From assembly GCA_964016885.1 (NCBI GenBank), contig OZ024746.1, positions 37,572,001-37,636,000 of the forward strand: a stretch of 64,000 nucleotides of DNA. Direction: 5' to 3'. Under the pieces are notes generated by a model, which saw only the letters and a list, made by a program, of their open reading frames with translations, searched no databases and was not told where the DNA came from. This document shows, piece after piece, positions 1-58,045 of this stretch (position 1 is its first letter; each line of letters opens with the position of its first letter). Origin of the DNA: Eledone cirrhosa (taxonomy: Eukaryota). A program made the position numbers and the translations under genes.

Positions 1-1070
1 TGCTTTTTTTAAAAAAAGGGAATTTATTAGGTATTGACATATGTTTCTGTAACAGACGGAATACCTATGTATCGCTGCTTGCGTAATCATATAATGTTAG
101 CAAGTATTCGATAGCAAATCAGTTGTCACTTCTTCAGAGATTTTGGATAAATTGGAAAAAAACAGAAAAATTGAATTATTTATATTAGTTGTAATAGAGG
201 AAGAAGACAGGGGATAGTATATGACAGATGGTAATTCAATTTACTGCTAAACAAGTATATAAAGGGTTTCTAATGAAAATACAATGAGTAAATGGTTTAT
301 TTTATCTAAATAAGAATTTTTGGGAGTGCCTATTTTAATCTATACTTGACCAATTGAACAATGGATAGGGCTGGTCATTTGGTGTAGTAGTATTAATTAT
401 AAAGTGTCAATTAATGAAGGGGGAGATTTCGATTGCTCCTGAATAACATCAATGCTAGTAGCCAGCTGGTATATGCATTAGGGAATTGAATTAAGAAATC
501 TCATTTTATCTATAGCAGTTTATATTAAATGGTAAATAATAGAAGAGTTGATAGAATTAAGACTAATAGAGAATGTTAATATGTATTTTGACAATCAAAC
601 GGAGATGGAGACAGGCGTTCAATCCTGGTAGTATTTGTAACATGAAAATGTAGATTTTAAGCGATGGTTACAGTATAACGATCGCTCTATTCTGTTATTT
701 AATAAAATGTTTTTGGATATCATAATACAAAATAATTCCATTTACATAATTTACAAAATTCCTGTCCGTGGGAGTATGGAGGGGAAGACACTATTATATC
801 GCATTTTAGGTGAAATTGTTGGTTATTTTAACGCAGCTGCCAAGCCTTGTCTGCGAGTGTTGATAAATAACGCTGGTTTTCATGTTTTATCGAGTAACGA
901 TGTCTATAAAGGCGTGATTTGAAGGAGGTGGCTGTAGAACCCACATAGTACCACTTCTGGCTATCTGATTCGATTGTACATTTGTATATTATGTTGCGTT
1001 CAAGACACTGATTGTTCAACGGACACATTCCTGGTTGGACACAGTTACAGTTATAATTTTGCGTTGTATA
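1..1070 (-). mobile_element. 5'-truncated PLE: GIY-YIG endonuclease remnant (~640-1050) plus 3' UTR
   Basis: ORF 828-1028 CPLNNQCLERNIIYKC..YYVGST..FKSRLYRH matches PLE GIY-YIG. The 3' UTR recurs at ~1630-1890 (-) and ~42290-42920 (+). Confidence 0.85.
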
Positions 1071-4356: not shown

Positions 4357-6170
4357 TATTAAAACAATGAAATTAAACACAAAACTGTTAATTCATAGTA
4401 AAACACATTACTTTTAAAATATTTTTTACCATTCTCGATAAGCATTTCCCAACTAATCACAAATACCATCAAATCTTAAACATAAATACAGCAAAATGTT
4501 CTTCCTCCACATCGAGCAATATACAACAAAAAATAAGACCATATAACATCTATAAATGTAAAAAAGCTCCATCTATACCACACACAATAGCACACCACAC
4601 ACAAGATAACTATGGTAATACTACAACACATAACCAGAATATTACTGCATACCCAGCTGATAGACCCGCTCACTCACCTCACCAGCACAATATAGCAGAC
4701 GACAACCAACTACCATCTTCCTCATCCATAATAGGGACTAAGATTTACATACCCAATCTAACTAATAGCGTCCACAACAACCATGATTCCATAAACGCTA
4801 TATCAAGTATACTTTCGCCAACTAGCAACAATTCGGATTATAACCACCCTACCGTAAACCTTCTCTCCCCAATAAAATGGTAAACACAAATACTAGCACT
4901 ATTATTGAGAATATGGATAGCACATCTGAAACCCTATATGCAAACGGTTGTAATTGTAGAATAAAAGATAATTGCCCCTTAAATGGAAATTGCTTAATTA
5001 ATAATATAGTATATAAATGTGTAATCAACACTAAAGACTCTAATCAATCCTATATAGGATTCACTTCTAATCCATTTAAATCGAGATGTTATGCACACAC
5101 CCACAGTTTCCGAAACACAAAATTAGCAAATACCACTTCTTTAGCAGAGGCAGTTAATAATTGTAAAAAGAAGAATATTAAATATAACCTAACTTGGAAG
5201 ATTCTTAAGAGAACTATTTATTATCAGGGCAATAGAAGCGAGTGCGGACTATGTTCCCAAGAAATATTTGAAATTACTAAATCGAAGGACACTCTATTAA
5301 ATAAAAGACAATAATTAATTTTAGTATGTAACCATAACATTAGAAGGACATTCAAATATTATAAATACAACTAAACAAATATAGAAAAAGATATAGGTGA
5401 ATAAATGTGTGAGTATAGGTGTGTGTGTGAATATGTATAACTGTGTGTGTATATGCATATGCATACATGTATGCCTATATATAAACATGTGTGACTATAC
5501 ATGTGTATATATTTTTTATATTATATATTTTTCGAACAAATTATTCCTCACAACAAAGAAATAACTAACTTTTTAAGATTGTTCTATTCCATTCTACTTG
5601 ATGTAACACACTAATCTCAGTACCCCTTTTCCTCCAACCGTAATCTTCTTTGACCACAACACTATTATATACAATATGCCTAATTTCATTTACACTAACA
5701 ACTTTCATTGCTTTTCTTAAAATACATTTGATACCTTAACCACTGATGGCCTATTTATTTATCTACTACCACCAACCTTAAGGGTTTATACTGCCCTTTC
5801 CATTCTTAACATTGGTCAATTTCAACCTGGTTATAAAACCTTACTTATTCATATGTATGTTTTTGTGTATGTTTCAATAAAGAAAACTCATTATTTCCGA
5901 AGACGGCGGGTAGTGAAGACGTATGTAACTTTTACTTACTGTGATATTTTGTAATATGTTTTACATAGATCAATAATTGAATGATCGTAAAATAATGTGT
6001 TTTAATATAAATTAACAGTTTTTTGTTTAAATTCATTGTTTTAATATTTCTATTTCGACTCTGATCCAATTGAATTATATCGTTGATAAAAATGTTTGTA
6101 TTGTAAACTTTGCTTCACAACATCTTCTACATACGGATTACATTGGATTCTTTATAAGGTTTAGACCCTA
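4354..6170 (+). mobile_element. 5'-truncated PLE with GIY-YIG ORF 4877-5314 and a short inverted pLTR arm
   Basis: CNCRIKDNCPLNGNCLINNIVYKC..YIGFTSNPFKSRCYAH..CGLC. 4354-4425 is an inverted copy of ~5985-6047. Confidence 0.85.
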
Positions 6171-9355: not shown

Positions 9356-10014
9356 TATCAGTAAAATAATGAACCCTTAATTACGAAGCTCGGTTTAGTT
9401 GACGTACTCCTCCTTTCAAATTACTCGCTAAGGTATATTGGTCTCGAACCCGGACGCTCATCAGGCTGGAGTTTATCCCGGTATCCATGGTGTCATGGAG
9501 CTGAAATTACACGACTTCACCTGGACAGTCGGTAATCGTGTCAACCTGGGTATACTGGAGCAACAGGAAATTAATTGTTTTGTTCAAGAACATAACAGAC
9601 ATGTCTGTCAAACACCCTTAGTAATACTTCTAATAAGAATATATATTTTTTAAACATATTAGCTATGGTGGTAGCATCGAATATCTTAACACTATCTTTT
9701 AAAACATAAATTATCTGATATCAATCATTATGAAAACCGCATCACACACTACCTGTAAATATATATATATATATATATATATACAGGTAGTGTGTGATGC
9801 TCGACATTTCGAACATGAAGCGCCTAGAAAGAGATGCATTTATAAGATGTACGTTGCTCAAGCGGAGAAATCAAATGCAATTACAGTCAGGTGTAATGAG
9901 ACACCATATATAATCGTGTAAATGTTTCAGAGACGGAAAAAATCTTTTCATCAACCGCTTCGAAGTATCGAACACTGTATCTCACAGATATAATGTATGT
10001 GTATATAAATATAC

Positions 10015-10062
<48 letters not shown>

Positions 10063-10067
<5 letters not shown>

Positions 10068-10243
10068 GAAGAGAGAAGAAACATTTAGATATAATTAGTA
10101 ATAAGATGTATCATACCTAAACTGCTCTAGATTCCTCGACTACGTAGTTTCGTGGCATGATCAAAAACAATACATCATAGAGATATAGAGCCTTTGTGAG
10201 GTCTGCCGACTTATCAAGAGGATACCTCATTTTACTAGCTACA
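10063..10243 (-). mobile_element. Fragment of the 591-nt HHR family, with HHR at 10133-10222
   Basis: Reverse complement reads tcctc-UUGAUAA-gtcggca...tgccac-GAAA-ctacgtag-UC-gagga; flanked by (TA)n. Confidence 0.85.
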
Positions 10244-14471: not shown

Positions 14472-14536
14472 TATTTTGTCTGATGAAGGCATACCATAAT
14501 TTAACTTGGTATCCTTGAAATATGTATAATGAAATA
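14472..14536 (+). ncRNA. Type I hammerhead ribozyme
   Basis: tattttgt-CUGAUGA-aggcatacca..tggtatcctt-GAAA-tatgta-UA-atgaaata. Confidence 0.85.
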
Positions 14537-17182: not shown

Positions 17183-19190
17183 ATTCAGCGTGAACTACAT
17201 AAAAAATATAAAAAAACAAATGAATCTACACTCTCCAGCATTAACATGGAGGGCCTCAAGATAGGACCGAACCGCTAACCCCGTGCAACCCTACATTTAA
17301 CGTGAAGGATCACAAAAATAACTTTGAAACTAATCCCACCATTAGATTAATATGCCCATCCAAGTCAGAGATAGGTAAAATTAGCAAGAACATTCTAGAT
17401 AGGGTAATCGCACAAATAAAGGGTAAACTAGAAATCAATTTATGGGTCAACACTAACGAGGCAATTAAATGGTTCAATAAAATACAAAATAGGGAGACGT
17501 GTAACTTCATACAATTTGATATAGACGACTATTATGCATCCATATCCCCAGCTACCCTAGATAAGGCGCTTATATTTGCCCAAAATAACTCTGATCTTAC
17601 CCATGATGAAATTGAAATAATAATTGTTTCTACTTTAGGCACAAGGCCAGCAATTACCCGGTACATTACTGGTACTTTATTTTAATAATAGCGGCTAGAA
17701 GGACTATCATAAAATTTGAAAATAACTACTGGGTAAGAAAGGATAGAATAAATATAACAATGGGATCAAATGATTCTGCGCAAATCACAGATATCGTGGC
17801 GATATTCATAGCACACAACCGACATAAGGAATTCAGTAACGTCCAAGGAGGAATGTATAGGGACGACACGTTACTTATAGCTAGGAACCTAAACAACCAG
17901 TGCATGGAAAGACTAAGAAAGAATATTAGAATATTCTTCAAAATACTAGGCCTAAGTATTACCTACGAACTAAACCATAAGAAGGTAAATTTTCTAGATG
18001 TAACTCTAAATCTAAATACTGGATTAATAGAACCTTTCCACAAAAATAATGAAAATCTTGCCTACATTAGTTACCACTCAAATCACCCCAAATCCATAAT
18101 TAAATCCATAGCACGTAGTATATCCCTCCGAATATCCCGCTTATCCTCAAACCTAGAAATCTTTAACGAGCATGCTCACTATTATAATGCAGCATTAAGT
18201 AGGGCCGGTCATAAAGATAAACTACAGTATATAGTGAATAAGGACAACATAAACAATCCTAGTAATTACTACTCCAACCGCTCACATAATAATAGGAATA
18301 GCTTGACTAGACATAGGGTTAGACATGTAACACCTGGAGTAAACGGCCAAAACACTAATAACGTAAACCCAAGAAACAATAGAAGAAGCAGACAAAGAAA
18401 ATACCTATGGTTCAACCCAATATTCAACTCCTCTATAAAAACTAAACTGCCCTCTACATTCTTTAAACTAATAGATAAACACTTCCCTATCTCGCATAGA
18501 TATCACAAAATACTCAATAGATCTACTATAAAACTCTCATTCTCAACAGCAGCTAACATAGAATCACACATACGCAAGATCAACCACAGAAATATCTCTA
18601 GTAAATCAATTGCACCTATACATAAGCACAAACTCATCACAACATCACAACCACAAGCGCATACAAACGCGCAGCAGCAAAACCCCCATTGGGCATATAT
18701 CACAACCCACTTATAACAGAGTACTAAACAGGAATGTAAAAGCTGCACAAAATAGCACCTCAAACTTAACTGTCACCTCCCAGATAGGTGCCCATTGGCA
18801 AACAGATGTCTTGATTCGAGCCTGGTGTACATGTGCACTGTCATCTCGGGTAACTCTACCTGGAATTACATAGGATCCACCGCGGGTTCTTTTAAGAAAA
18901 GATGGTATGTGCACAGGCACTCAATGAAAAACCGTGCACTTATGGGTTCCACAACTCTCGCCAAAAAAATATTGTAATTGAAAGACAGCAACACTAACTA
19001 CAGTATCAACTGGTCGAAGTTGTCGGCTGCTAAAACCTATAGTACAGGGATGTCCCATTGCGGGCTATGTGATCTTGAGCTATTGTATATCCTTAGAAAT
19101 GTTAAAAGGCTACTTAACAATAAGTTAGAAAGATCTATCTTCTGCAGACATAGAATAGACACTAAATTCATAAGATTCAAACCTCCGTGA
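17183..19190 (+). pseudogene. Disrupted PLE RT-endonuclease ORF
   Basis: KDHKNNF, RLICPSKSEIGKISK, FIQFDIDDYYASI, MGSNDSAQ, YRDD, VNFLDVTLNL, WFNP, then YIGST..FKKRWYVH and CGLC. Broken by a SINE insertion, frameshifts and a stop at 18975-18977. Confidence 0.9.
17621..17683 (-). mobile_element. 5'-truncated SINE inserted in the PLE RT
   Basis: SINE 3' end flanked by aataat. Removing it restores EIEIIIAARRTIIKFENNYWVRK..ITMGS. Confidence 0.85.
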
Positions 19191-20356: not shown

Positions 20357-21790
20357 AGATCAAAAGATGGTTAAATGAGTTCCATGTATTTTATTATGCG
20401 CATTTCAAAAACAAACATCATCATGCAATTATATTTGTGTTTTCATCAGATAAAACAGGAGAACATGATATGAAGGCTAAAAAACACTTGTGGATAGTGC
20501 AGTTTTAAATCAACATATGAAAAGTGGTTTTAGATTGATGTGTGATATTGGGAAAAATATTTTATTTAGAGAGGGGGGGGATGATGAAAAAGGGGAGGAG
20601 ATGAGAGGGAGAGATGGGTGATAGAGAGAAAGAGATAGTTTTTATAACTGAGAAAAGATATAATGTTTCACATAGAGAGGTTGAGAACCGTTGGAAGATA
20701 ATGTATAAATTAAAAGAATTTGAAAATTAACGAAGGGAATTTATGTATGAAGATAGAGAGAAAAAATAATAATTGTGGATGAATATTCTAACGTCAAAAA
20801 AAGTGTATGTTGATAAGTATTGTGGCCATTTCAACATTAACGAAGAGAAAAAATTATTAAGGTTTGTGTGTAGAAGGATTTGAGAAAAATAATGTGAAGT
20901 TAAAGTTTGTATATTGAAGGAATTGATAATATGTGCGAATAAAGAGTTAATATGTATTAAGAATGAGTTCGTTGATGGGGAGAAAAAATAATAAATTAAG
21001 GATGAAATTGAGATTAAAAAGTTTTATGATAGAGAGAAAAATTTATAATAATTGCGGATGAATATTCTAACGTCAAAAAAACAAATGTATATGTTATGAA
21101 GGATTTTACAAGGTGAAGATAGAAAGAGGGTAATGAGTAAACAAGTATTATAGAGTGTATAATGCCCTTTGAAGTAAGGTAGGAAGATGGGTATATTTTA
21201 AAGAGGTGTATGTATATGTGCCTTTGAGAAAAGATTCTAAATTGATAAAGAATTGAATATTAACTGTATACTTTGTGAAAAGTCCTATGGAATTTATGCA
21301 GGCAGATAGAAAACAAATATGTACGTCTATTTATTATAGAATCTAGATTAGAGATAATGGTACATTTTTCATTTAGGCAGAGATTACAGATTTTAGATAG
21401 AGAGCTGTTCAAGTATGAGGATGCAGAAGAAACCTTCTTCCAAAAGATGGTATATTTAATGTTTTTGTCTTTCAAGGACCATATGAGTTCTGAGAGAGCC
21501 GTGTTGGTTCTTTTAAGTTTGTATTTGAAAGATGAATGGTGATTATAGAGACGAGCTTTAAAAGAGGTGGAAGTGGAGCCAAAATAGGTGAAGGAATTGG
21601 TGCTAGTTATAACTTTACATTCATAAATTAAGTTTTTATCGAGACAATGGTTGTTGAGAGGACATTTATTTTTAATGCGGCAGTTGCAATTAGAGAGATT
21701 ATTAATGAGTGACCTAGTGTTATCTATAGAAGGAATTGGATTGGAGAAGTTGTTTGCGATAAGAATAATAGGAATAATAGTTTCTATATA
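20350..21790 (-). mobile_element. 5'-truncated PLE: open GIY-YIG domain (21260-21720), 3' UTR and pLTR
   Basis: Manual translation: CNCRIKNKCPLNNHCLDKNLIYEC..YFGSTSTSFKARLYNH..CNLCLNEK..ICLHK. Confidence 0.9.
20387..20457 (-). ncRNA. Type I hammerhead ribozyme
   Basis: Reverse complement reads tgttttat-CUGAUGA-aaacacaaata..tgtttgttttt-GAAA-tgcgca-UA-ataaaata. Confidence 0.85.
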
Positions 21791-22076
21791 TATATATACT
21801 TATAGTTAACTATAGTTAATAATAGTTTCCATATATATAGTTAACAAACGGAAGTACAAAAAGACTTATTATTTTCACGCTTCTTAGAGGAAAGAGGAAA
21901 GAAAGTTCGACATGTCAGGCTTAACCCCTTCTATATGAGTACAACATAGAGACAGGTTCAGAAAGGAGAAACAGAAAAAAGGTCCAGTAAAGACACAAAA
22001 AAACGAAAATGAAAATGGAAAAAAAGAAAACCGTTACGTAGTCTCGGTAACGAATAGGAAAACTAAAAGTGTGCAG

Positions 22077-24509: not shown

Positions 24510-24518
<9 letters not shown>

Positions 24519-25383
24519 TTAGAAACACACATATACATGCGGACACACACATATACATGAATGCATCCACATGCAACCGTGAGTTAATGGTGCCAACCTT
24601 ACCGATGTTGCTCAATGAATGACTGGGACAGACCAATCCGGTTGAACTAGACTGAACCAGTATCAGAGTTAAAAATACATTATGAAGAGAGAAGAAACAT
24701 TTAGATATAATTAGTAATAAAATGTATCATACCTAAACTGCTCCTGGATTCCTCGACTACGTAGTTTCGTGGCATAAACAAAAACAGTACATCATAATGA
24801 TATAGAGCCTTTGCGTCTAGTTCAACCGGATTGGTCTGTCCCAGTCATTCATTGAGCAACATCGGTAAGGTTGGCACCATTAACTCACGGTTGGATGTGG
24901 ATGCATTCATGTATATGTGTGTGTCCGCATGTATCTGCGTGTTTCTAAATATATTATTCATAAATCCCTCTGGTCGACTAATCTTTGAAGTGTGGTGACT
25001 GCTGGAAAGCTGCCATTACTCATACTTCTCGACTCCTTTACCACCTCTTCTACGGCTTCGATATAAATACCCCCTCCGCCTCCGTGGTATTTTCTTCGGG
25101 GTTATAAGAGGCTTAGCTCTGTTTCTCGACCGTTATATCACGTGACTATCCCCCCCTCCGCCTTTTGGGATTCTTCTCACGTTGTGTAGACGCGTTCTTG
25201 AAGCTAGTAAAATGAGGTATCCTCTTGATAAGTCGGCAGACCTCGCAAAGGCTCTATATCTTTATGATGTACTGTTTTTGTTTATGCCACGAAACTACGT
25301 AGTCGAGGAATCTAGGAGCAGTTTAGGTATGATACATTTTATTACTAATTATATCTAAATGTTTCTTCTCTCTTCATAATGTA
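24510..25383. mobile_element. 591-nt HHR family, head-to-head insertion: (-) arm 24510-24815, (+) arm 24816-25383, HHR at 25220-25309
   Basis: Both arms align to the 34509-36740 monomer at different permutation points. Confidence 0.9.
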
Positions 25384-26462
25384 TATATATATATATATAT
25401 ATATATAGTAAAAGTAGTATTCAAAATTGCTGATATTAATTCAACGTACTTCTGCCTGCGTCTAGCTCACTCAGCGAATCTGCCGAATTGCCGTAATGCA
25501 GCTGCATTCAGCTGTTCAGAGTGCACACATTTAGTTAATAGCAGATAGAGTCGCTGTGTTTTGGTAGCGGTACAAGTAAATGTCTCAAATCCTGGACGAT
25601 ATCGTTTCTGTATATTACATCCGCAAAGTTCAGAAGATCAAGCTATATCAGTAGATATTTGCATAATCATGCTATTACACGACATCAGCAGGAGGACCAA
25701 GTCATAAGATAGGTCCATGCAGTGAGTGTTATCCATTACTGATGGATGAGATATCTAGCAGTTCTCGGCATTCTCACACTGCCTCTAATAAAAAGTAGAA
25801 GAATTCCATCGTAGAATAGATCAGGTGGTTTGGTGGTTGAATTCAAACAAAGCAATTCGGACCAAAACAAAAACAGTCTACCAGCTTCTCGTTTATGGGC
25901 ATATATACATAACGGTTTTTATGTATATATATATGTGTGTGTGTGGTTGTGTGTGTGGTTGTATGTGTGTATGTGTGTATGTGTGTGGATGCGCGTGTGT
26001 AAATTTCGTATATTTTATAATTATACGGTATGTTTAAGAATAAACGTTTGGAATGCCTTCTAGTTATACATATTGAAATGTTATCGGGTAGCACCCTCTA
26101 GCGGATTCCAGCAGAAGCAGCGAGAGAAAACTGTCAAGGCCCATTTCTGGTTCTGGCCGTTATCAGTACAGTAGATCCCATTTGAGATGACTCACCAATT
26201 CGTTAATTATATGGCACTGTTTCGTTGCATATCTGTTTATTTACATGAATACTTCGTACATTATACAATATCAACGTCAATATACAACGTCATATATGTA
26301 TACATATGGAAGGTCCTAGTATTAACCCCACCATATATATGCATGTGTGCGTGTGTGTATGTATGTGTGCATGTGTATGTGGGTGTTTATGTGATTGTCT
26401 GTGTTTGTTTTTGTGTGTAAATTGATGATTCTCCATGTCTATATATATATATATATGTGTGT

Positions 26463-32750: not shown

Positions 32751-33160
32751 TACTCTATTGAGCTTTCATGATAATCGTCATTCCTTTTCTCCTTCATTCA
32801 ATACTATATTATGTAATATAAAGTGAAAGTCATTTATATATACCACAGTATAATTTGTTAATTTCTCTCTCCGCCGCAAGTGATAATCTCATTTGCTACG
32901 AAGGCAACTCCTTTTTTTTACCATTATATCTTGTGTTAATTCCTCTCTCTGCCTCTAGAGATTTTTCACTTGCTACAAACGCGTCAAAGAAAAAGTCCTT
33001 TTTTCTGAGGGGTGTCTCTTTATAAGCAGTATCAACCGCACAGCAATGATGCATTTTTATAGTACATAATGCTGCATATGGATTGGCGAAACCCCAGTTG
33101 GGACTTTAAAGAAAAAATAGGGATATTTTTGTCTATTATTTCCTCATCTTTTGTTATGTG

Positions 33161-33244
<84 letters not shown>

Positions 33245-33247
<3 letters not shown>

Positions 33248-33506
33248 GTATAAAAATCAATACAACATAATTACCTCATTACCAGAGGTTTCCCGAATGA
33301 GGCGAATACGAAATAACGACTTCATTCGTTCGTCTCGTCTGACGAACGAATGAAGTCGTTTATTTCGTATTCGCCTCATTCGGGAAACCTCTGGTAATGA
33401 GGTAATTATATTGTATTGATTTTTATACATTAAATTTTGCTGTGATACTTACATAGAGCACTCTTCATTTCTATGACCTTTTCTGTTCCCAACGGAAATT
33501 TCAATA

Positions 33507-33588: not shown

Positions 33589-34643
33589 CATGTGTGTGCG
33601 TTTGAGTATTAGCGTGTGTGAGTGTGTGTGTGTGTGTATGTGTATTTACATGCGCGTGTGTAAGTATGTTTGTCTCCCCATGTGTATGCACGCGTTTGTG
33701 TGCCTATTACATGTGTGTACTTGTATATGGTAAGGGCGTGTGGTTGTAAGAGTATGCACATGTGTTTGATTTGTTGCTTAGTTAATTGTCTTTACATATC
33801 GATAATGCGGTTTCAAAACCTTAATAATGTAATACATCAAATAATTTACGTTTACGTTAAAGTGCATTTCGGAATACAATCCAAGTACGATATAAATTAT
33901 TAACCACACATATCTATTCATTAGAATAAACACACTGAAAGTGCCCTTATCTACTGGTGTCTTCAGTATATAAAAGCTGGTGGAGGACAACCCGCTTCAG
34001 GCCAGTTGACAGCCGAGTTCTCCTAAAGGATGAATGTTCGAGAGAATGAGAGATTGTGAGAAAGTGATACAGGGGAAGTATCAACTTATGCATTGAACTG
34101 ATATTTTATATATTAACCTCGAAATCATGAAAGGAAATGTTGCCCACTGTGTATTTGACTAAATACTGGGACAAACAGCGTGACAATAAAACGAATACTG
34201 AACGAACAACGTAGAGGCATAGAATGGTCACCATTGACATTATCATTTGTTCCCAACACACAACTGGATTATGGATAGAATACAAAATATATTGGAACTA
34301 ATAAATATGTTCGTGATAACATTGTAACTGATTCTTGTTTTACGGTAGATCCTCCATTCATTCTCACAGCCCTGATTACTCACTCGTTACAATCACTACA
34401 CAATTCAAGATATAGTCACATTATATAAATATGTGTGTGTGTGTGTCTGTCTGTGTTTCTGTCTGTGTCTATATATATATATATTTTTATATATTTATAT
34501 ATATATATGGTATTTTTTTCGTGGTTATAAGAGGCTTAGCTCTGTTTCTCGACCGTTATATCGCGTGACTATCTCCCCCTCCGCCTTTTGGGATTCTTTC
34601 TCACGTCGTGTAGACGCGTTCTTGAGACTAGTAAAATGAGGTA

Positions 34644-34731
34644 TCCTCTTGATAAGTCGGCAGACCTCGCAAGGACTCTATATCTTTGAAATATTGTTTT
34701 TGTTTATGCCACGAAACTACGTAGTCGAGGA
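34644..34731 (+). ncRNA. Hammerhead ribozyme, U3-A8 variant, unit 1
   Basis: tcctc-UUGAUAA-gtcggca..57-nt stem II..tgccac-GAAA-ctacgtag-UC-gagga; predicted cut after 34726. Confidence 0.8.
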
Positions 34732-35234
34732 CTTTAGGAACAGTTTAGATATGATACATTTTATTACTAATTATATCTAAATGTTTCTTCTCTCTTCATA
34801 ATGTATTTTTAACTCTGATACTGGTTCAGTCTGGTTCAAACTGAATTGGTCTGTCCCAGTCATTCATTGAGCAACATCGGTGAAGTTGGCACCCTTAACT
34901 CACAGTTGGGTGCGGATGCATTCATGTATATATGTGTGTGTCCGCATGTATCTGTGTGTTTCTAAATATATTAATAACTCCCTCTGGTCGAGCAATCTTT
35001 GAAGTGTGGGGACAACTGGAAAGCTTCCATTACTCATACTTCTCGCCTTCTTCACTACCTCTTCTACGGCCTCGATATGGATACCCCCTCCGCCTCCGAG
35101 GTATTTTTTTCGTGGTTATAAGAGGCTTAGCTCTGTTTCTCGACCGTTATATCGCGTGACTATCTCCCCCTCCGCCTTTTGGGATTCTTTCTCACGTCGT
35201 GTAGACGCGTTCTTGAGACTAGTAAAATGAGGTA

Positions 35235-35322
35235 TCCTCTTGATAAGTCGACAGACCTCGCAAGGACTCTATATCTTTGATATATTGTTTTTGTTTATGC
35301 CACGAAACTACGTAGTCGAGGA
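35235..35322 (+). ncRNA. Hammerhead ribozyme, U3-A8 variant, unit 2
   Basis: As unit 1 with one stem II substitution (gtcgaca); predicted cut after 35317. Confidence 0.75.
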
Positions 35323-35824
35323 ATTTAGGAACAGTTTAGGTATGATACATTTTATTACTAATTATATCTAAATGTTTCTTCTCTCTTCATAATGTATTTT
35401 TAACTCTGATACTGGTTCAGTCTGGTTCAAACTGAATTGGTCTGTCCCAGTCATTCATTGAGCCACATCGGTGAAGTTGGCACCCTTAACTCACAGTTGG
35501 GTGCGGATGCATTCATGTATATATGTGTGTGTCCGCATGTATCTGTGTGTTTCTAAATATATTAATAACTCCCTCTGGTCGAGCAATCTTTGAAGTGTGG
35601 GGACAACTGGAAAGCTTCCATTACTCATACTTCTCGCCTTCTTCACTACCTCTTCTACGGCCTCGATATGGATACCCCCTCCGCCTCCGTGGTATTTTTT
35701 CGTGGTTATAAGAGGCTTAGCTCTGTTTCTCGACCGTTATATCTCATGACTATCTCCCCCTCCGCCTTTTGGGATTCTTTCTCACGTCGTGTAGACGCGT
35801 TCTTGAGACTAGTAAAGTGAGGTA

Positions 35825-35912
35825 TCCTCTTGATAAGTCGGCAGACCTCGCAAGGACTCTATATCTTTGATATATTGTTTTTGTTTATGCCACGAAACTA
35901 CGTAGTCGAGGA
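35825..35912 (+). ncRNA. Hammerhead ribozyme, U3-A8 variant, unit 3
   Basis: As unit 1; predicted cut after 35907. Confidence 0.8.
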
Positions 35913-36415
35913 ATTTAGGAACAGTTTAGGTATGATACATGTTATTACTAATTATATCTAAATGTTTCTTCTCTCTTCATAATGTATTTTTAACTCTGAT
36001 ACTGGTTCAGTCTGGTTCAAACTGAATTGGTCTGTCCCAGTCATTCATTGAGCAACATCGGTGAAGTTGGCACCCTTAACTCACAGTTGGGTGCGGATGC
36101 ATTCATGTATATATGTGTGTGTCCGCATGTATCTGTGTGTTTCTAAATATATTAATAACTCCCTCTGGTCGAGCAATCTTTGAAGTGTGGGGACAACTGG
36201 AAAGCTTCCATTACTCATACTTCTCGCCTTCTTCACTACCTCTTCTACGGCCTCGATATGGATACCCCCTCCGCCTCCGTGGTATTTTTTTCGTGGTTAT
36301 AAGAGGCTTAGCTCTGTTTCTCGACCGTTATATCGCGTGACTATCTCCCCCTCCGCCTTTTGGGATTCTTTCTCACGTCGTGTAGACGCGTTCTTGAGAC
36401 TAGTAAAATGAGGTA

Positions 36416-36503
36416 TCCTCTTGATAAGTCGGCAGACCTCGCAAGGACTCTATATCTTTGATATATTGTTTTTGTTTATGCCACGAAACTACGTAGTCGA
36501 GGA
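36416..36503 (+). ncRNA. Hammerhead ribozyme, U3-A8 variant, unit 4
   Basis: As unit 1; predicted cut after 36498. Confidence 0.8.
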
Positions 36504-36734
36504 ATTTAGGAACAGTTTAGGTATGATACATTTTATTACTAATTATATCTAAATGTTTCTTCTCTCTTCATAATGTATTTTTAACTCTGATACTGGTTCA
36601 GTCTGGTTCAAACTGAATTGGTCTGTCCCAGTCATTCATTGAGCAACATCGGTGAAGTTGGCACCCTTAACTCACAGTTGGGTGCGGATGCATTCATGTA
36701 TATATGTGTGTGTCCGCATGTATCTGTGTGTTTC

Positions 36735-36780
<46 letters not shown>

Positions 36781-45703: not shown

Positions 45704-46049
45704 AGAAAAAGAGATGAAATCGAAAATGCAACTGGAGTCTTATTTTTTTTTTAAATATATATATTTATTTGGTTAGATACCGGTTTCGCAGTTCTTCTGC
45801 TTTTCAAAAGTAGAGTTGAGATGGAGGGTCTGTGGTTTTTCTAACAGATGTGAGAAAAACCACAGACCCTCCATCTCAACTCTACTTTTGAAAAGCAGAA
45901 GAACTGCGAAACCGGTAAAGGAACCAAATAAATATATATATTTTTTTTAAATAAAACTCTAGTTGCATTTTCGATTTCATCTCTTTTCCTTTATACCTTC
46001 ACTCGTGTAGGACACCTCGGTTATTTTTCAATTTGTAAAAAAACCTCAC

Positions 46050-48573: not shown

Positions 48574-49058
48574 ATATATAGGTATGTGTGTGTATGTATG
48601 TATATATATATGTTTGTGTATATATATGTATATGCATGTACATATGTGTGTGTGTGTGTGTGTATGCATGTTTGTGTATTTGTATGTATGTGTATGTATG
48701 GATATGTTGATAATTATGTGTGTATGTATGTATGTGTATATGTATGTGTATGTATATATATACACATATATGTGTGTTTGTGTATATGTGTGTGTGTATG
48801 TATGTGTGTATGTATGTGGTTATGTATATTTATACGTGTATGTATATAATTGGGTGTGTGTGTGTTTGCATGTGTGTTTATTTTTCCTTTCCTTCTTTCT
48901 TTTCCAGCCTCACTTTCATATAGATTATATTTTTGTTTTTAAAATCCAATGCCAATAAATACACCAGGATTTTTTCATTGTGATGATTAAAAGCAAAATT
49001 TGTTTGCTTTTAAGAAACCACTGGTAAATGAAATAAATGCCTTATGTTGTTTATTACA

Positions 49059-49843: not shown

Positions 49844-52800
49844 TTAATTGTAAGTTGTGATGTTGCTGTTCCACTCATATTTTCTATTTAATTTTGGTTG
49901 TAATTCTTTTATGTTTATTGTCTCTGTAATTTGTCTAAACATTGCATATTTTCTGTGTGTAGATTCTATTTTTATTTCTATGTTCTCTAATTTACCCCTG
50001 TGTTCTATCTTAGCATGTTGGTAGAGTACAGATGATTCTTTATTATCTTGAAGGTCTCGCCAGTGTTCATTTATCCGTTCCCCTATACTACGAGCTGTCT
50101 CACCTATGTACACTATATTTTTGTCTCTACATTGTCCTTCAGTACATCTTATGCTATACACTACATTTCTAGTTTTACAGTTAATATGGGGGCTTATTTT
50201 ACAGGTTATACATTTCTTATCTATATATGAGGGTCTTTGAAAAGGGTATGTCTTGCTAATAAGTGTGTTTACGGAGGTACCTGGTCTTTCTACTATCTTA
50301 ATATTGAGTTTATGTTTATTTAGGGCCCTTCTAAATTTGTAGGCTAGTTCGCCTCTAGGGGTTGTATCGATGAACATTACACTCTGGTATTTATTGCTAT
50401 CATACCATGAGTTTATTCTATTAGCCTTGTTCCTAGTTCTTTCTATTCTAGTCCAAAATGTGCTTCTATACAAGGAGCAGGTCCCATTTATGTCATTATT
50501 TCCCATTTTTTCCCATTTGGTTCTGGCTCCTCGATACACTCTGATTCTATCTCTCTGATTGTAGCCAGAGAACTGCATACGGTGGATGAAGTGTTGTATG
50601 TGTCTCTCTAGTTCTTCGGGGTTGCACATGCGGGACACATTTCTCATCACCCGTACCAAATCCGCAATCAGTATGTTGATTTTGGTATGGTCCGAAATGG
50701 CCGAGTTTCGGTGGATCAGATGTTTGGAAGTCATGGGTTTGGCATAATGGGAATGGAGGATTTGTTTTTTGTTGTTAATGGTATCTAACCAGAGCTATGT
50801 GTCTAGTACAGGTAATCGATGGTTGGGGTGTCTACTTGGGTAGTCTATAGTAACTCTAATGCTCTGGTGGATGGAGTTTGCTATTTGGTGGATGCTTTCC
50901 ATTGTGTTTTGCTCTAGTTCCTGACTGTTCTCTAGTTCGGGTGTCTTAACCACGATGTTTATATCATCTACGTAGCGGAGTACATTATCAGGGTTAAGGG
51001 GTCTTCTAATTGTTCTTTAAGTTTAAGTTTAAGTCTACTGTCCCACCATACCATGAATAAGTTAGCTATGTCGCCTGCAATGCTAACACCAATGGTTGCT
51101 CCTTCCTCTTGGGCATATGTTTTTCCATTAAATTTGAACATATTTTCCTTAAGGGTAAGTTTTATGCTGGCCCCTATCCCATATGCAATCATTTTCTTCA
51201 GTTCATCGTGGTTTTCGGGTGTCCGTATGGCTCTGGTCCACCCGTTCCATCTATCTGTGTGGGTTTTCTTGGCCATTGAGGTAATGGTAGGTGGTCTGCC
51301 TCTTGCTGGTCTTGTAGGGCACAGGTTGCTAAGGTCATATGTGTCTAGGTAACTATTACTATAGGTAAGCTTAAGTAGAAGTCCCAGCTCACTGGTATCA
51401 ATCCCACGGATCTCAACCTTGCTCTCACTGATCATTTCTACGCATTTCTCCACAGCAAAATCCACGTCAATAGATGGATACAGGGACACAACATCCATAC
51501 TGCCTATTATGCAGTTTGTTAGGTCCCCAGATCGGTTACTCACGCCGATTCTGCTGAGGAGGTCCTCCGTGCTGTCACATACATCTGGGGACATTTCAAT
51601 GATGGGGCGTATGATCAGGGAGAGGAAGTAGGACAGTCTGTAGTTACTAGCAATGTTAGCTCCACAGACTGACCGTGTTTGTGGTCCCGCGACAGGGTCA
51701 CATAACGTTTTATGGTCTTTTCGAAGCCCATACAGCGCCGGCACGTCATTGTTCCAGGCCTGGAAGTTGTTGGCAGTCCTTTTGTTGGGCTGCATTATAT
51801 TCGTCCACATCACCATATGGGCATTGAGGGCTTTTTCTCTATCCTCATGCTCCTGTGGTGTTACCTCTCTTGTGTTAGTGATGTGGGTTGCATTGCCTGG
51901 ATGTAGTTTGGCAGGCTGTCAACCGACATTCTGCAAGACTTGTCTGTTGGAAAGCATGCTATCTCTCCATTACGTGAGCGCTGCATGAGCTTACGCAAGC
52001 CATTTGCAGATTTTTCTCCCAGTTGCTGGGCCTCCATTCTATTATGCTTCTTGCTATACTGTTCTATAATATTTCTAAGTTCGGATCTAGCTATACTAAA
52101 TTGTGCTTCTGTTTGTTCATCGACCTGCGACGGCAATTGCGTGCGTTTGTTAAATGGTAAAGTCGTGGCGTGGACTCGTCGCAGGTCGAATGATTTATCG
52201 GAGGGATTATAAAACGGAGAGTTCCAGGCTGCTGCTTTATGTTTACTAGTGCTATTGTTATTGTTAGTTGTGTTGTTTCTATTTCTATTTCCACCAACAG
52301 CTTCATGGTTGTTTCTATGTGTCTCATAATTACTCCTCTCTCTTTCCACTGGCTCATTGTTGTTATCTACCCTATTTTGTGTGTCTGTGTATTCGTCTTG
52401 GTTATTCTATTTGTCCTTCGTCTCCCTTCTCCTTTTAATCCTATTACTTTCTCTTATTTCTGTGATTTCTGTGCTACTGTCATTACTTGTTTTCTGTGTC
52501 TGTGTGTTTGTTAAGATTGTGGGGGTGGTGAGAGGCATTGAATGCGTGTGTGTTGTTGTTGTTGATGTGCTGTTGTTGATGTGTGTTGTTGTTGTCTCCA
52601 TGTGTGTTATTGTTGTTGTGTGTGTTGTTATTGTTGTTTGTGTCTGCGTGTCTGTTGTTGTTTCTGGGTATGTTGTTATTGTTGTTGTTGTTGATGTGTG
52701 TGTTGTTGTTATTGTTGTTTGTGTCTGTGTGTCTGTTGTTGTTGGGATGTGTGTTGTATATGTGTGCGCGTATATTGTTGCTTTTGTTTTTGTTTTTGTT

Positions 52801-53405: not shown

Positions 53406-54498
53406 GTGCGTGTGTTTCTTATTGGCCACATGACCCTCCCAAAGTATAACAATATCGGTTTGAACAAACGATTTCAGATAAAGAATCTTGCCAAACAAAT
53501 TCAGAAACGAAATATCGTAAGCCCTAGCCAGGCTAACAAGATACTGAAAACCACCATGTTCTGTTATCTACGAAAAACCATAACATCTCGACAACTACAT
53601 TTCATAAAGCAATGTGCCAGAATCTACACCAACACCATCAATACCGACGTTAGAAGATTGCAACTCACCAAAAAACAAGCAGACAGGCTAAAACGAACAT
53701 TAATTCTAAACATAAAAAAGAAGATCTATAGAGAATTAAGTCATCAAGAAAAACAAAAGCGTAACCTAATACAAGAAATAGCTAGGATCACCACACCAAG
53801 AGAGAAACTAATATTTATAAGCCTTATACGCCATGAAGAACAGTACATTACTCAAGAATGTGATAAGCACTTTAACAAGAAACTAAAGTGACTTAAGCAG
53901 ATAAAACTAAATCAGGATACTATAGAGAATACCAATAGGTATCCCGACAGAAAGTGACGGTATAAACATGGCCGACACCTCATTAACAGAAGAGTTCAAC
54001 AATAACAACACGAATATATATGGGAACGCAAGAATAGATAATGACGAAATGTCTGTGTTATGCTTGCCCCCGATATTTGCGACATTCAAGAAGGTAAATA
54101 TGATTAGTTGTCTGTCAGAAATAGAAAAATCATTTACAAAACTACGCTGGAGCATCAAAATCAAAAACAAAAACAAAAGCAACAATATACGCACACACAT
54201 ATACAACACACATCCCAACAACAACAGACACACAGACACAAACAACAATAACAACAACACACACATCAACAACAACAACAATAACAACATACCCAGAAAC
54301 AACAACAACAGACACGCAGACACAAACAACAATAACAACACGCACAACAACAATAACACACACGGAGACAACAACAACGCACATCAACAACAGCACACAT
54401 CAACAACAGCACACATCAACAACAACAACACACACGCATTCAATGCATCTCACCACCACCACAATCTTAACAAACACACAGACACAGAAAACAAGTAA
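53406..54498 (+). pseudogene. N-terminal part of the PLE ORF (two frames)
   Basis: 53406-53891 and 53968-54498 (VLCLPP.F..SEIEKSFTKLRW) are separated by a TGA and a +1 indel that the twin arm lacks. Confidence 0.7.
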
Positions 54499-57139
54499 TG
54501 ACAGTAGCACAGAAATTACAGAAATAAGGGAAAGTAATAGGATTAAAAGGAGAAGGGAGACTAAGGACAAAGAGAATAACCAAGACGAACACACAGACAC
54601 ACAAAATAGGGTAGATAACAACAATGAGCCAGTGGAAAGAGACAGGAGTAATTATGAGACACATAGAAACAACCATGAGGCTGTTGGTGGAAATAGAAAT
54701 AGAAACAACACAACTAACAATAACAATAGCACTAGTACACATAAAGCAGCAGCCTGGAACTCTCCGTTTTATAATCCCTCCGATAAATCATTCGACCTGC
54801 GACGAGTCCACGCCACGACTTTACCATTTAACAAACGCACGCAATTGCCGTCGCAGGTCGATGAACAAACAGAAGCACAATTTAGTATAGCTAGATCCGA
54901 ACTTAGAAATATTATAGAACAGTATAGCAAGAAGCATAATAGAATGGAGGCCCAGCAACTGGGAGAAAAATCTGCAAATGGCTTGCGTAAGCTCATTCAG
55001 CGCTCACGTAATGGAGAGATAGCATGCTTTCCAACAGACAAGTCTGGCAGAATGTCGGTTGACAGCCTGCCAAACTACATCCAGGCAATGCAACCCCACA
55101 TCACTAACACAAGAGAGGTAACACCACCGGAGCATGAGGATAGAGAAAAAACCCTCAATGCCCATATGGTGATGTGGACGAATATAATGCAGCCCAACAA
55201 AAGGACTGCCAACAACTTCCATGCCTGGAACAATGACGTGCCGGCGCTGTATGGGCTTCGAAAAGACCATAAAACGTTATGTGACCCTGTCGCGGGACCA
55301 CCAACACGGCCAGTCTGTGAAGCTAACATTGCTAGTAACTACAAACTGTCCTACTTCCTCTGCCTGATCATACGCCCCATCATTGAAATGTCCCCAGGTG
55401 TATGTGACAGCACGGAGGACCTCCTCGGCAGAATCGGCGTGAGTAACCGATCTGCGGACCTAACAAACTGCATAATAGGCAGTATGGATGTTGTGTCCCT
55501 GTATCCATCTATTGACGTGGATTTTGCTGTGGAGAAATGCGTAGAAATGATCAGTGAGTGCGAGGTTGAGATCCGTGGGATTGATACCAGTGAGCTGGGA
55601 CTTCTACTTAAGCTTACCTATAGTAATAATTACCTAGACACATATGACCTTAGCAACCTGTGCCCTACAAGACCAGCAAGAGGCAGACCACCTACCATTA
55701 CCTCAATGGCCAAGAAAACCCACACAGATAGATGGAACGGGTGGACCAGAGCCATACGGACACCAGAAAACCACGATGAACTGAAGAAAATGATTGCACA
55801 TGCGATAGGGGCCAGCATAAAACTAACCCCTAAGGAACATATGTTCAAATTTAATGGAAAAACATATGCCCAAGAGGAAGGAGCAGCCATTGGTGTTAGC
55901 ATTGCAGGCGACATAGCTAACTTATTCATGGTATGGTGGGACAGTAGACTTAAACTTAAACTTAAAGAACAATTAGAAGACCCCTTAACCCTGATAATGT
56001 ACTCCCGCTACGTAGATGATATAAACATCGTAGTTAAGACACCACCACTAGAGAACAGTCAGGAACTAGAGAAAAACACAATGGAAAGCATCCACCAAAT
56101 AGCAAACTCCATCCACCAGAGCATTAGGATTACTATAGACTACCCAAGTAGACACCCCAACCATCGATTACCTGTACTAGACACAGAGCTCTGGTTAGAT
56201 ACCATTAACAACAAAAAACAAATCCTCCTTTCCCATTATGCCAAACCCATGACTTCCAAACATCTGATCCACCGAAACTCGGCCATTTCGGACCATACCA
56301 AAATCAACATGCTGATTGCGGATTTGGTACGGGTGATGAGAAATGTGTCCCGCATGTGCAACCCCGAAGAACTAGAGAGACACATACAACACTTCATCCA
56401 CCGTATGCAGTTCTCTGGCTACAATCAGAGGGATAGAATCAGAGTGTATAGAGGAGCCAGAACCAAATGGGAAAAAATGGTAAATAATGACATAAATGGG
56501 ACCCGCCCCTTGTATAGGAGCAAATTTTGGAATAGAATAGAAAGAACTAGGAACAAAGCTAATAGAATAAACTCATGGTATGATAGCAATAAATACCAGA
56601 GTGTAATGTTCATCGATACAACCCCTAGAGGCGAACTAGCCTACAAATTTAGAAGGGCCCTAAATAAACATAAACTCAATATTAAGATAGTAGAAAGACC
56701 AGATACCTCCGTAAAAACACTTATTAGCAAGACATACCCTTTTCAAAGACCCTCATATATAGATAAGAAATGTATAACCTGTAAAATAAGCCCCCATATT
56801 AACTGTAAAACTAGAAATGTAGTGTATAGCATAAGATGTATTGAAGGACAATATAGAGACAAAAATATAGTGTACATAGGTGAGACAGCTCGTAGTATAG
56901 GGGAACGGATAAATGAACACTGGCGAGACCTTCAAGATAATAAAGAATCGTCTGTACTCTACCAACATGCTAACATAGAAGACAAGGGTAAATTAGAGAA
57001 CATAGAAATAAAAATAGAATCTACACACAGAAAAGATGCAATGTTTAGACAAATTACAGAGGCAATAAACATAAAAGAATCACAACCAAAATTAAATAGA
57101 AAATATGAGTGGAACAGCAACATCACAACTTACAATTAA
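54443..57139 (+). CDS. PLE reverse transcriptase / GIY-YIG endonuclease, 898 aa (frame open from 54125)
   Basis: PTDKSG, LYGLRKDHK, TRPV, GSMDVVSLYPSI, long RT insertion CPTRPARGRPPTIT, QEEGAAIG, YVDD, LPVLD, CITC..C..NVVYSIRC..YIGETAR..ERINEH. Confidence 0.93.
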   Translation: MHLTTTTILTNTQTQKTSNDSSTEITEIRESNRIKRRRETKDKENNQDEHTDTQNRVDNNNEPVERDRSNYETHRNNHEAVGGNRNRNNTTNNNNSTSTHKAAAWNSPFYNPSDKSFDLRRVHATTLPFNKRTQLPSQVDEQTEAQFSIARSELRNIIEQYSKKHNRMEAQQLGEKSANGLRKLIQRSRNGEIACFPTDKSGRMSVDSLPNYIQAMQPHITNTREVTPPEHEDREKTLNAHMVMWTNIMQPNKRTANNFHAWNNDVPALYGLRKDHKTLCDPVAGPPTRPVCEANIASNYKLSYFLCLIIRPIIEMSPGVCDSTEDLLGRIGVSNRSADLTNCIIGSMDVVSLYPSIDVDFAVEKCVEMISECEVEIRGIDTSELGLLLKLTYSNNYLDTYDLSNLCPTRPARGRPPTITSMAKKTHTDRWNGWTRAIRTPENHDELKKMIAHAIGASIKLTPKEHMFKFNGKTYAQEEGAAIGVSIAGDIANLFMVWWDSRLKLKLKEQLEDPLTLIMYSRYVDDINIVVKTPPLENSQELEKNTMESIHQIANSIHQSIRITIDYPSRHPNHRLPVLDTELWLDTINNKKQILLSHYAKPMTSKHLIHRNSAISDHTKINMLIADLVRVMRNVSRMCNPEELERHIQHFIHRMQFSGYNQRDRIRVYRGARTKWEKMVNNDINGTRPLYRSKFWNRIERTRNKANRINSWYDSNKYQSVMFIDTTPRGELAYKFRRALNKHKLNIKIVERPDTSVKTLISKTYPFQRPSYIDKKCITCKISPHINCKTRNVVYSIRCIEGQYRDKNIVYIGETARSIGERINEHWRDLQDNKESSVLYQHANIEDKGKLENIEIKIESTHRKDAMFRQITEAINIKESQPKLNRKYEWNSNITTYN

Positions 57140-57674: not shown

Positions 57675-58045
57675 TATATACAATGATATTAAATAAATGG
57701 AAACTATATTTATAAAACCATATTTATTTCATATATATCATATAAATCATACTTTATCGGTTGGATATTCTTTGGATATCCAAAGAATATCCAACCGATA
57801 AGGTATGATTTTCATGGGTATGTCTCTATTCATAAAAGAAACTTTGTATTTTATCTGAGGAAAGCGTACCAATGTGTTTTGGTACCCTTGAAATATATAT
57901 AATAAAATAGAAAATGGTTTTATAAATATAGTTTCCATTTATTTAATATCATTGAATATTTCCTCCAGTAACATGCTGAGTGCTCTAAATCAGTTATAAA
58001 CATTTATATTTGTCGGACATCCAACAGATTAAATACCCTTTCTAC
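57675..58045. mobile_element. Head-to-head pLTR pair (family of 14263-14668)
   Basis: 57681-57735 is inverted at 57897-57954. Confidence 0.8.
57847..57909 (+). ncRNA. Type I hammerhead ribozyme
   Basis: tattttat-CUGAGGA-aagcgtacca..tggtaccctt-GAAA-tatata-UA-ataaaata; perfect 8-bp stem I. Confidence 0.88.

What the first reader, a model, noticed from the sequence alone, without database searches (positions are those of the whole stretch)
34644..34731. Compensatory U3-A8 hammerhead core with a 57-nt stem II, fixed in six copies
Seen: the core reads UUGAUAA rather than CUGAUGA at 10133-10222, 25220-25309 and all four array units, while stem II differs between loci. Known: C3-G8 is a tertiary Watson-Crick pair, so the double change preserves pairing. 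Inference: selection for activity; CUGANGA-pattern searches would miss this family.
Basis: partly seen in the sequence, partly recalled or inferred. Interest (0 to 1): 0.8.

Follow-up and report, generated by a model that had tools for sequence, protein, structure and literature searches.

The report
Swapped-core hammerhead in a retrozyme superfamily
Thousands of copies of a small non-coding repeat in this animal genome carry a predicted self-cutting RNA with an already described U-A swap in its catalytic core, and related repeat families in the same genome carry the normal C-G pair or a multi-copy U·G halfway form that likely records how the swap evolved; cutting is untested.

Summary
All six copies read UUGAUAA; the stem II span is 57 nt in the four array units and 59 nt in the other two. 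They belong to a young 591-bp retrozyme-like family (6,237 exact core matches) that sits in (TA)n with Penelope-type ends. U3-A8 is already published as a natural hammerhead variant. The six copies do not show selection: they share recent descent, and single changes at positions 3, 8 and the tolerant position 7 are about equally rare (12, 16, 11). Better support comes from homologous families found here, which keep the core while the helices change compensatorily. All share a predicted loop II pseudoknot, a hairpin inside the long stem II and a palindromic stem III. Families A and B are U3-A8 and family C is C3-G8 (69 of 70). Family E, C's sister, is split: 19 U3·G8 and 17 U3-A8 of 37, too many for decay. 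C3·A8 occurs only as scattered singles. The core pair likely changed through a U·G wobble; the direction is unresolved. Activity is untested, and one published mutational scan found such cores weak.

The parts
34510..36743 (+). One-armed insertion of family A: about 3.8 tandem units of 591 bp, between (TA)n tracts, ending 245 nt past the predicted cleavage site
   Evidence: no ORF of 120 aa or more inside
34637..34642 (+). 5' strand of the predicted pseudoknot, just upstream of stem I
   Evidence: pairs with 34664-34669; outer pair U-A 29, U-G 5, C-G 3, unpaired 1 of 38 rows; coordinates
34644..34648 (+). Stem I, 5' strand (pairs with 34727-34731)
   Evidence: one pair reads U-A 27, C-G 10, U-G 1 of 38
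34649..34655 (+). Core UUGAUAA: U3 = 34649, A8 = 34654
   Evidence: genome counts
34656..34712 (+). 57-nt stem II domain: proximal helix (34656-34662 with 34707-34712), pseudoknot strand 34664-34669, distal hairpin 34670-34702
   Evidence: same layout with other letters in families B, C and E
34713..34726 (+). GAAA, palindromic stem III (34716-34725) and GUC triplet; predicted cut between 34726 and 34727
   Evidence: palindrome kept with different letters in related families
35235..35322 (+). Hammerhead of array unit 2 (carries a rare G>A in proximal stem II)
35825..35912 (+). Hammerhead of array unit 3
36416..36503 (+). Hammerhead of array unit 4
24511..25384 (.). Two-armed (inverted) insertion of family A: - arm ends at +247, + arm ends at +80, both on (TA)n; complete hammerhead at 25220-25309
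10059..10238 (-). Short one-armed insertion of family A ending at +80 on (TA)n; hammerhead at 10222-10133
33014..33104 (+). Decayed hammerhead of related family B (U3 and A8 kept, G5 changed), followed by (TA)n at 33161
   Evidence: 37.5 bits on model R1; family aligned

Best explanation
This is the type I hammerhead motif of a young, 591-bp non-coding tandem repeat family, likely a retrozyme copied into (TA)n by a borrowed Penelope-like protein, whose U3-A8 core is predicted to cut with the help of a loop II pseudoknot and likely interconverted with the canonical C3-G8 pair through a U·G wobble form. Shown: the sequence anatomy, the copy numbers, two fixed 3' ends (+80 and +245 from the predicted cut) used one per arm in inverted insertions, arms that run through the cut site, and homologous families in three paired states (U3-A8, U3·G8, C3-G8) with no C3·A8 family found. 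Inferred: multimer transcripts are cut at GUC to monomers, possibly as dimers through the palindromic stem III. Monomers are ligated to circles. The Penelope-like reverse transcriptase starts at two internal sites and copies round the circle from both nicked strands. The pseudoknot and long stem II compensate for the weaker core pair.
For: Core conservation: 0 of 12 core columns carry a variant shared by 3 or more of 38 family A rows, against 16 of 64 paired and 39 of 60 other columns (rows are related). Compensated pairs in stem I and the pseudoknot. Family B keeps U3-A8 in 31 of 33 exact hits while the letters of stems I, II and III differ and still pair. Family C reads C3-G8 in 69 of 70 hits with C3, in the same architecture. 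In 26 chosen C and E rows the pair reads C-G 12, U-G 8, U-A 6; the pseudoknot is 98% paired and stem III has two pairs changed on both sides. Family E: 19 U3·G8, 17 U3-A8, 1 other of 37; 12 of 29 independent insertions, binomial p 6e-9 for 5% decay per site. In a run of another study G8 (69-76% of depth) far exceeds C3 (20-30%). Insertion anatomy: 20 of 30 loci two-armed, 19 of these 20 pair +80 with +245 to +253. 21 of 23 arms cross the cut site and none starts at it. The monomer folds at z -5.7. Literature: U3-A8 natural and active in vitro (PMC3088659); two internal start sites explain the PLE tail (PMC11167929).
Against: No cleavage or RNA data. A pairwise mutational scan of a type III hammerhead found all single and double changes in this region weak except the G-C swap (PMC9901934 section 7), so U3-A8 and U3·G8 may cut poorly. 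A PLE hammerhead was dispensable for insertion in vitro. The hammerhead is not the predicted minimum-energy fold: nested part -14.6 against -20.0 kcal/mol, pseudoknot helix not included; the local 156 nt fold no better than shuffles, z -0.66. Two insertions carry a broken or wobble 3-8 pair in both of their units (L130 U·U, L129 U·G), and L092 has G12A in both arms, so core-damaged templates were sometimes copied or converted. Two proximal stem II pairs are unpaired in 15 and 8 of 38 rows; the first is inflated by my query's rare variant. The inner four pseudoknot pairs are nearly invariant, so they carry little covariation. No autonomous partner was found. Read-through of the cut site fits uncut multimers as well as circles.
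Confidence: 0.72

Rival explanations
1. The fold is selected, but not for efficient cutting: U3-A8 and U3·G8 are slow or protein-dependent cores, the template is the uncut tandem transcript, and the structure mainly serves as a recognition element for the Penelope-like protein.
For: Hammerhead mutants did not affect insertion in vitro, and the PAc ribozyme cut only with protein (PMC11167929). Low activity of these cores in one scan. Arms cross the cut site without pile-up. Both units mutated in L129 and L130. U3·G8 amplified.
Against: All catalytic positions, including G5, A6, G12-A14 and the NUH triplet, are kept across families whose other letters differ. The 3-8 positions stay paired in every multi-copy state, and C3·A8 was found only as scattered singles. 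Units within one insertion are more alike than units of different loci.
Confidence: 0.2
2. The ribozyme is dead; U3-A8 was fixed by hitchhiking in one master locus and the array is an ordinary satellite grown by unequal crossover.
For: Within family A the core is not more conserved than chance allows among young copies. No Rfam match among those listed.
Against: Compensatory changes between subfamilies and families. Dispersal over many contigs with two fixed 3' ends on (TA)n and inverted arms is a retrotransposition footprint, not a satellite one.
Confidence: 0.05
3. The repeat is a truncated terminal repeat (pLTR) of an autonomous Penelope-like element, not an independent element.
For: PLE-type ends; retrozymes are reported to derive from pLTRs (10.64898/2026.07.22.740005).
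Against: Arms continue into further 591-bp units, not into an ORF. PLE protein hits in the fetched loci were not joined to the element's 5' side in a consistent way.
Confidence: 0.03

Closest known systems
Metazoan non-LTR retrozymes (Cervera and de la Pena 2020, PMC7229834, passages seen; Li, Clavereau and Pollet 2026, 10.64898/2026.07.22.740005, part 1 of 5 and passages seen)
   Same: Non-coding tandem units, one type I hammerhead per unit, dispersed from monomers to multimers, highly structured monomer, palindromic stem III.
   Different: Unit 591 bp against about 300 bp typical. U3-A8 core, 57-59-nt stem II domain and predicted pseudoknot instead of the canonical loop I/loop II contact. 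Circular RNA not shown here.
U3-A8 hammerheads of Schistosoma Cercyon PLEs (PMC4209133, parts 1-2 of 4 read) and natural U3-A8 variants (Perreault et al. 2011, PMC3088659, passages seen)
   Same: Same double change in the core, in a retroelement context, missed by the standard descriptor.
   Different: The Schistosoma motifs are minimal and mostly single. Here the motif is large and tandem, and homologous C3-G8 and multi-copy U3·G8 families coexist.
Pseudoknotted hammerheads (Perreault et al. 2011, PMC3088659, passages seen)
   Same: A base-paired pseudoknot replaces the loop-loop contact between stems I and II; reported for all three types.
   Different: Here the loop II strand lies in an internal loop below a further hairpin, in an animal retroelement; not tested by mutation.
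Penelope-like element insertions (Frangieh et al. 2024, PMC11167929, parts 1-2 of 4 read; Craig et al. 2021, PMC8557442, passages seen)
   Same: Two fixed internal start sites (tail), inverted 5'-truncated arm, AT-rich or (TA)n target.
   Different: The offset is about 165 nt against 30-40 bp, the two arms nearly always use different ends, and there is no ORF.

Membership tests
Type I hammerhead ribozyme | Conserved core with a Watson-Crick pair between positions 3 and 8, GAAA and NUH | tested here: met
   U3-A8, GAAA and GUC in 6 of 6 copies
Type I hammerhead ribozyme | Three helices with stem I open, supported by compensatory change | tested here: met
Type I hammerhead ribozyme | Tertiary contact between stems I and II | tested here: inconclusive
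   Predicted 6-bp pseudoknot, 97-98% paired; only the outer pairs vary, compatibly
Type I hammerhead ribozyme | Self-cleavage after NUH | not testable with these tools
   needs an assay or raw RNA reads
Type I hammerhead ribozyme | Match to an Rfam hammerhead model (a detection aid, not a definition) | tested here: not met
   none among the 150 of 195 matches listed at E<=1
Metazoan non-LTR retrozyme | Tandem non-coding units, each with a type I hammerhead | tested here: met
Metazoan non-LTR retrozyme | Dispersed at many loci as monomers to multimers | tested here: met
   7,591 and 6,237 exact matches; 2,468 ends at +80 on (TA)n
Metazoan non-LTR retrozyme | Expressed as unit-length linear and circular RNA | not testable with these tools
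   only contig runs of unknown kind were offered
Element moved by Penelope-like machinery | Two fixed 3' ends, inverted arm, microsatellite target | tested here: met
Element moved by Penelope-like machinery | Homology to the pLTR of an autonomous PLE | tested here: inconclusive
   no match to the window's PLE flanks; no consistently joined ORF in fetched loci; whole genome not searched for this

The most novel reading that the evidence does not exclude
One genome preserves the whole compensatory path of a ribozyme's catalytic base pair: C3-G8, U3·G8 and U3-A8 each spread as multi-copy retrozyme families, and C3·A8 did not. The U·G wobble is a working natural hammerhead core in this pseudoknot-braced scaffold, reached more than once. 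It gives a natural series for asking how peripheral structure lets a catalytic core cross a fitness valley.
Probability: 0.45. Interest if true: 0.68.

Novelty: new variant of a known kind. Interest (0 to 1): 0.5.

Why it matters
U3-A8 alone is not new. What matters is the natural series in homologous scaffolds. A multi-copy U3·G8 state turned up in none of my literature searches, and one mutational scan predicts it to be weak. It makes two questions directly testable with a handful of transcripts: whether a strong pseudoknot rescues a weak core pair, and whether cleavage is needed at all for retrozyme spread. The family also shows that CUGANGA-based surveys undercount animal hammerheads by thousands per genome. 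Its two-ended insertions offer a clean substrate for studying Penelope-type priming.

Tried and rejected
Rfam scan: no hammerhead among those listed. Expression: no RNA holder listed; contigs show no starts or ends, so nothing is concluded about expression. The 'goes back 581' joints are what a tandem repeat gives and are not evidence of circles. A C3-G8 version with family A's own stem III: 0 matches. The G>A variant in proximal stem II seemed to recur in many subfamilies; rejected as ascertainment, because my query carried it and other runs read G almost throughout. Pile-up of 5' ends at the cut site: not seen, 1 of 90 arms at position 2 and none at 1 (6 of 96 arms dropped as cut by locus ends; an early impression of stops at position 1 came from the query boundary). 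The 769 matches are mostly another family; only 2 of the 100 listed led to family C. Direction of change: a quick tree put U3-A8 basal in C+E, but with positions 3 and 8 removed the base is unresolved and E as a clade is not rejected (p-AU 0.47), so no direction is claimed. U3·G8 as decay of family C: 4 family C copies read U3·G8 against 69 C3-G8, which fits decay for those four but not for family E. One search used a mis-registered structure and is superseded. Autonomous partner: not found; Pfam gave only a sub-threshold RT hit for 1 of 4 window proteins. Papers with the original 3-8 exchange kinetics (Przybilski and Hammann 2007; Nelson and Uhlenbeck 2008) were not held. One wider count of core states over C and E together was not obtained, so the totals for these families are lower bounds from separate anchors.

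Full report
Observation. A descriptor with positions 3, 7 and 8 free gave 12 hammerhead-like hits in the window. Six are the copies named, all reading UUGAUAA, with a stem II span of 57 nt in the four array units and 59 nt at 25220 and 10222. The array spans 34510-36743 in 591-bp units between (TA)n tracts and holds no ORF of 120 aa. The genome (G000, 3.0 Gb, species not determined) has 7,591 exact matches to the 3' half and 6,237 to the 5' half, with 0 for reversed controls. No hammerhead is among the 150 of 195 Rfam matches listed.

What the six copies do not show. With the same anchors, position 3 differs in 12 copies (all with A8), position 8 in 16 (all with U3) and the tolerant position 7 in 11. 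No copy with family A's stem III has C3-G8. In most mutant loci with a second copy, only one copy is changed; L129 (U·G) and L130 (U·U) are changed in both units. So fixation in six young copies reflects descent, and the single changes are mostly decay. U3-A8 is also published: natural and previously active in vitro (PMC3088659, passages), and about 1,300 copies in Schistosoma PLEs (PMC4209133, parts 1-2 of 4).

Anatomy. The long stem II is a 6-bp helix with a bulge, then six bases complementary to the six just upstream of stem I, then a distal hairpin. I read the six-base match as a pseudoknot bracing stems I and II, a solution described for natural hammerheads. I aligned 38 rows chosen for diversity from the window and the 121 distinct copies. 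Stem I shows U-A 27, C-G 10, U-G 1 at one pair, and the outer pseudoknot pair U-A 29, U-G 5, C-G 3; 94.5% of cells pair, against 35-54% for slid controls. Shared variants occur in 0 of 12 core, 16 of 64 paired and 39 of 60 other columns. Against this: two proximal stem II pairs are broken in 15 and 8 rows, and the hammerhead is not the minimum-energy fold.

Related families. A covariance model from these rows found a distant copy at window 32995-33130 (37.5 bits). It belongs to an older family B (892 first-look candidates, 40 scored), in which stems I, II and III have other letters that still pair, and the core is U3-A8 in 31 of 33 exact hits. A pattern built on the pseudoknot with a canonical core led to family C. 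It has the same pseudoknot, distal hairpin and palindromic stem III; 21 family C copies in 20 of the 29 loci searched score 20-44 bits on the model. By my count of the 92 hits, 70 are family C, of which 69 read C3-G8 and 1 C3·A8; the other 22 are 10 scattered family A singles and 12 others.

The wobble state. Searching for U3·G8 gave 48 hits, many with shared flanks. These define family E, sister to C. With positions 3, 7 and 8 free, E reads 14 U3·G8, 8 U3-A8 and 2 C3-G8 of 24 on one anchor, and 19 U3·G8, 17 U3-A8 and 1 other of 37 on another. Counting a seven-copy cluster on C3 and pairs within one insertion once leaves 12 of 29. End branches have a median of 0.04, and decay at 5% per site gives p 6e-9. 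Both arms of L231 read U3·G8 and both arms of L249 U3-A8. A further subgroup reads 11 U3-A8 and 4 U3·G8 of 15, three of the four sharing a private letter, which suggests a second small expansion. In contigs of another study (one sample, three runs), G8 makes up 69-76% of depth and C3 20-30%; the excess implies many U3·G8 copies, though linkage was not read directly and contig depth is a rough measure. In a 49-row tree the 26 C3-G8 rows form one side of a branch (100/97), with U3·G8 and U3-A8 intermixed on the other. With both core columns removed and A and B added (41 rows), C stays together (99/99) but the base of C+E is open and E as a clade is not rejected (p-AU 0.47). The wobble lies between the two Watson-Crick states, but the direction is not known. 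In 26 chosen C and E rows all helices pair and stem III stays palindromic through double changes (C rows were selected on C3-G8).

How it spreads. 3' ends fall at +80 or about +245 from the predicted cut and run into (TA)n; 2,468 exact +80 ends exist. Of the first 30 such loci, 20 are two-armed, 7 one-armed and 3 cut by the locus edge; 19 of the 20 pair +80 with +245 to +253, and two of them are a local duplicate. This matches the PLE tail, which arises from two internal start sites (PMC11167929, parts 1-2 of 4), and the inverted, (TA)n-biased insertions of PLEs (PMC8557442, passages), with a longer offset. Of 23 arms from this set not already counted, 21 cross the cut site and none starts at it. 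Units differ by 0.7% within arrays (22 pairs, identical units collapsed) and 2.4% between loci (66 pairs). The monomer folds at z -5.7. A cut linear monomer cannot be the template; a ligated circle or an uncut multimer can. The partner element was not found.

Mechanism and doubt. Most likely this is an active retrozyme whose weaker core pair is braced by the pseudoknot, and perhaps by dimer formation through stem III (duplex -12.9 kcal/mol; dimer activation is described in PMC4209133 and PMC7229834). The main doubt is activity. In a pairwise scan of a type III hammerhead only the G-C swap rescued this pair (PMC9901934, section 7 and passages), and a PLE hammerhead was dispensable for insertion in vitro. 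That G·U intermediates mediate compensatory change in RNA helices generally is recalled knowledge, not from a call.

Novelty. The element is a new variant of a known kind. Searches for natural U3·G8 hammerheads listed no paper with that term. The library omits most subscription journals, two kinetics papers were not held, and no supplements were read, so prior description is not excluded. PMC3884650 and PMC7151607 (passages) added nothing on this point. Earlier notes of this scan on the same family reach the same retrozyme and two-ended reading; they are not independent support, and the excerpts I saw do not mention the wobble state.

Noticed in passing
window 54125-57139 (+) and 49844-52484 (-): Penelope-like RT plus GIY-YIG-type reading frame (1004 aa stop to stop) with an inverted, broken second copy; a small canonical-core hammerhead candidate follows at 57850-57906. 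The clade and domain labels are recalled; Pfam gave only a sub-threshold RT hit.
   Followed up: partly
window 14475-14533 (+), 20454-20390 (-), 1210-1156 (-), 48975-49031 (+): Further small hammerhead candidates. Three have canonical cores and short palindromic stem III, one has a G at position 3; several lie near PLE fragments.
   Followed up: no
window 17245-19169 (+), 21260-21799 (-), 4392-5314 (+), 723-1052 (-): Fragments of other Penelope-like families with a cysteine-rich motif before the endonuclease region.
   Followed up: no
L197:14-149 (-): A copy of a further relative of family A (89.8 bits) with U3-A8, A at position 7 and a fully compensated stem III palindrome.
   Followed up: partly
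L165-L194: A different repeat family giving most of the 100 listed of 769 matches: a CUGA-containing hairpin, often in close inverted pairs; not analysed.
   Followed up: no
L042, L149, L223 (3' ends of families A, B, C): The three families share a short pyrimidine-rich motif just before a 3' end, a candidate start signal for the reverse transcriptase.
   Followed up: partly
L266-L271, L272-L278, L237:2942-3029: More old families with the same pseudoknot layout exist; one search gave 8,911 matches against 310 controls, including several families not characterised here.
   Followed up: no
window 33273-33412: A long near-perfect inverted repeat next to (TA)n; perfect hairpins also at 45807-45888 and 9734-9807.
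   Followed up: no
G000:C3:89.3-90.3 Mb: Seven family E copies spaced 130-280 kb apart, probably a segmental duplication array.
   Followed up: no
L207:700-1905: Family C appears to have a unit of about 705 nt and also forms two-armed insertions; some copies cut at GUA instead of GUC.
   Followed up: partly
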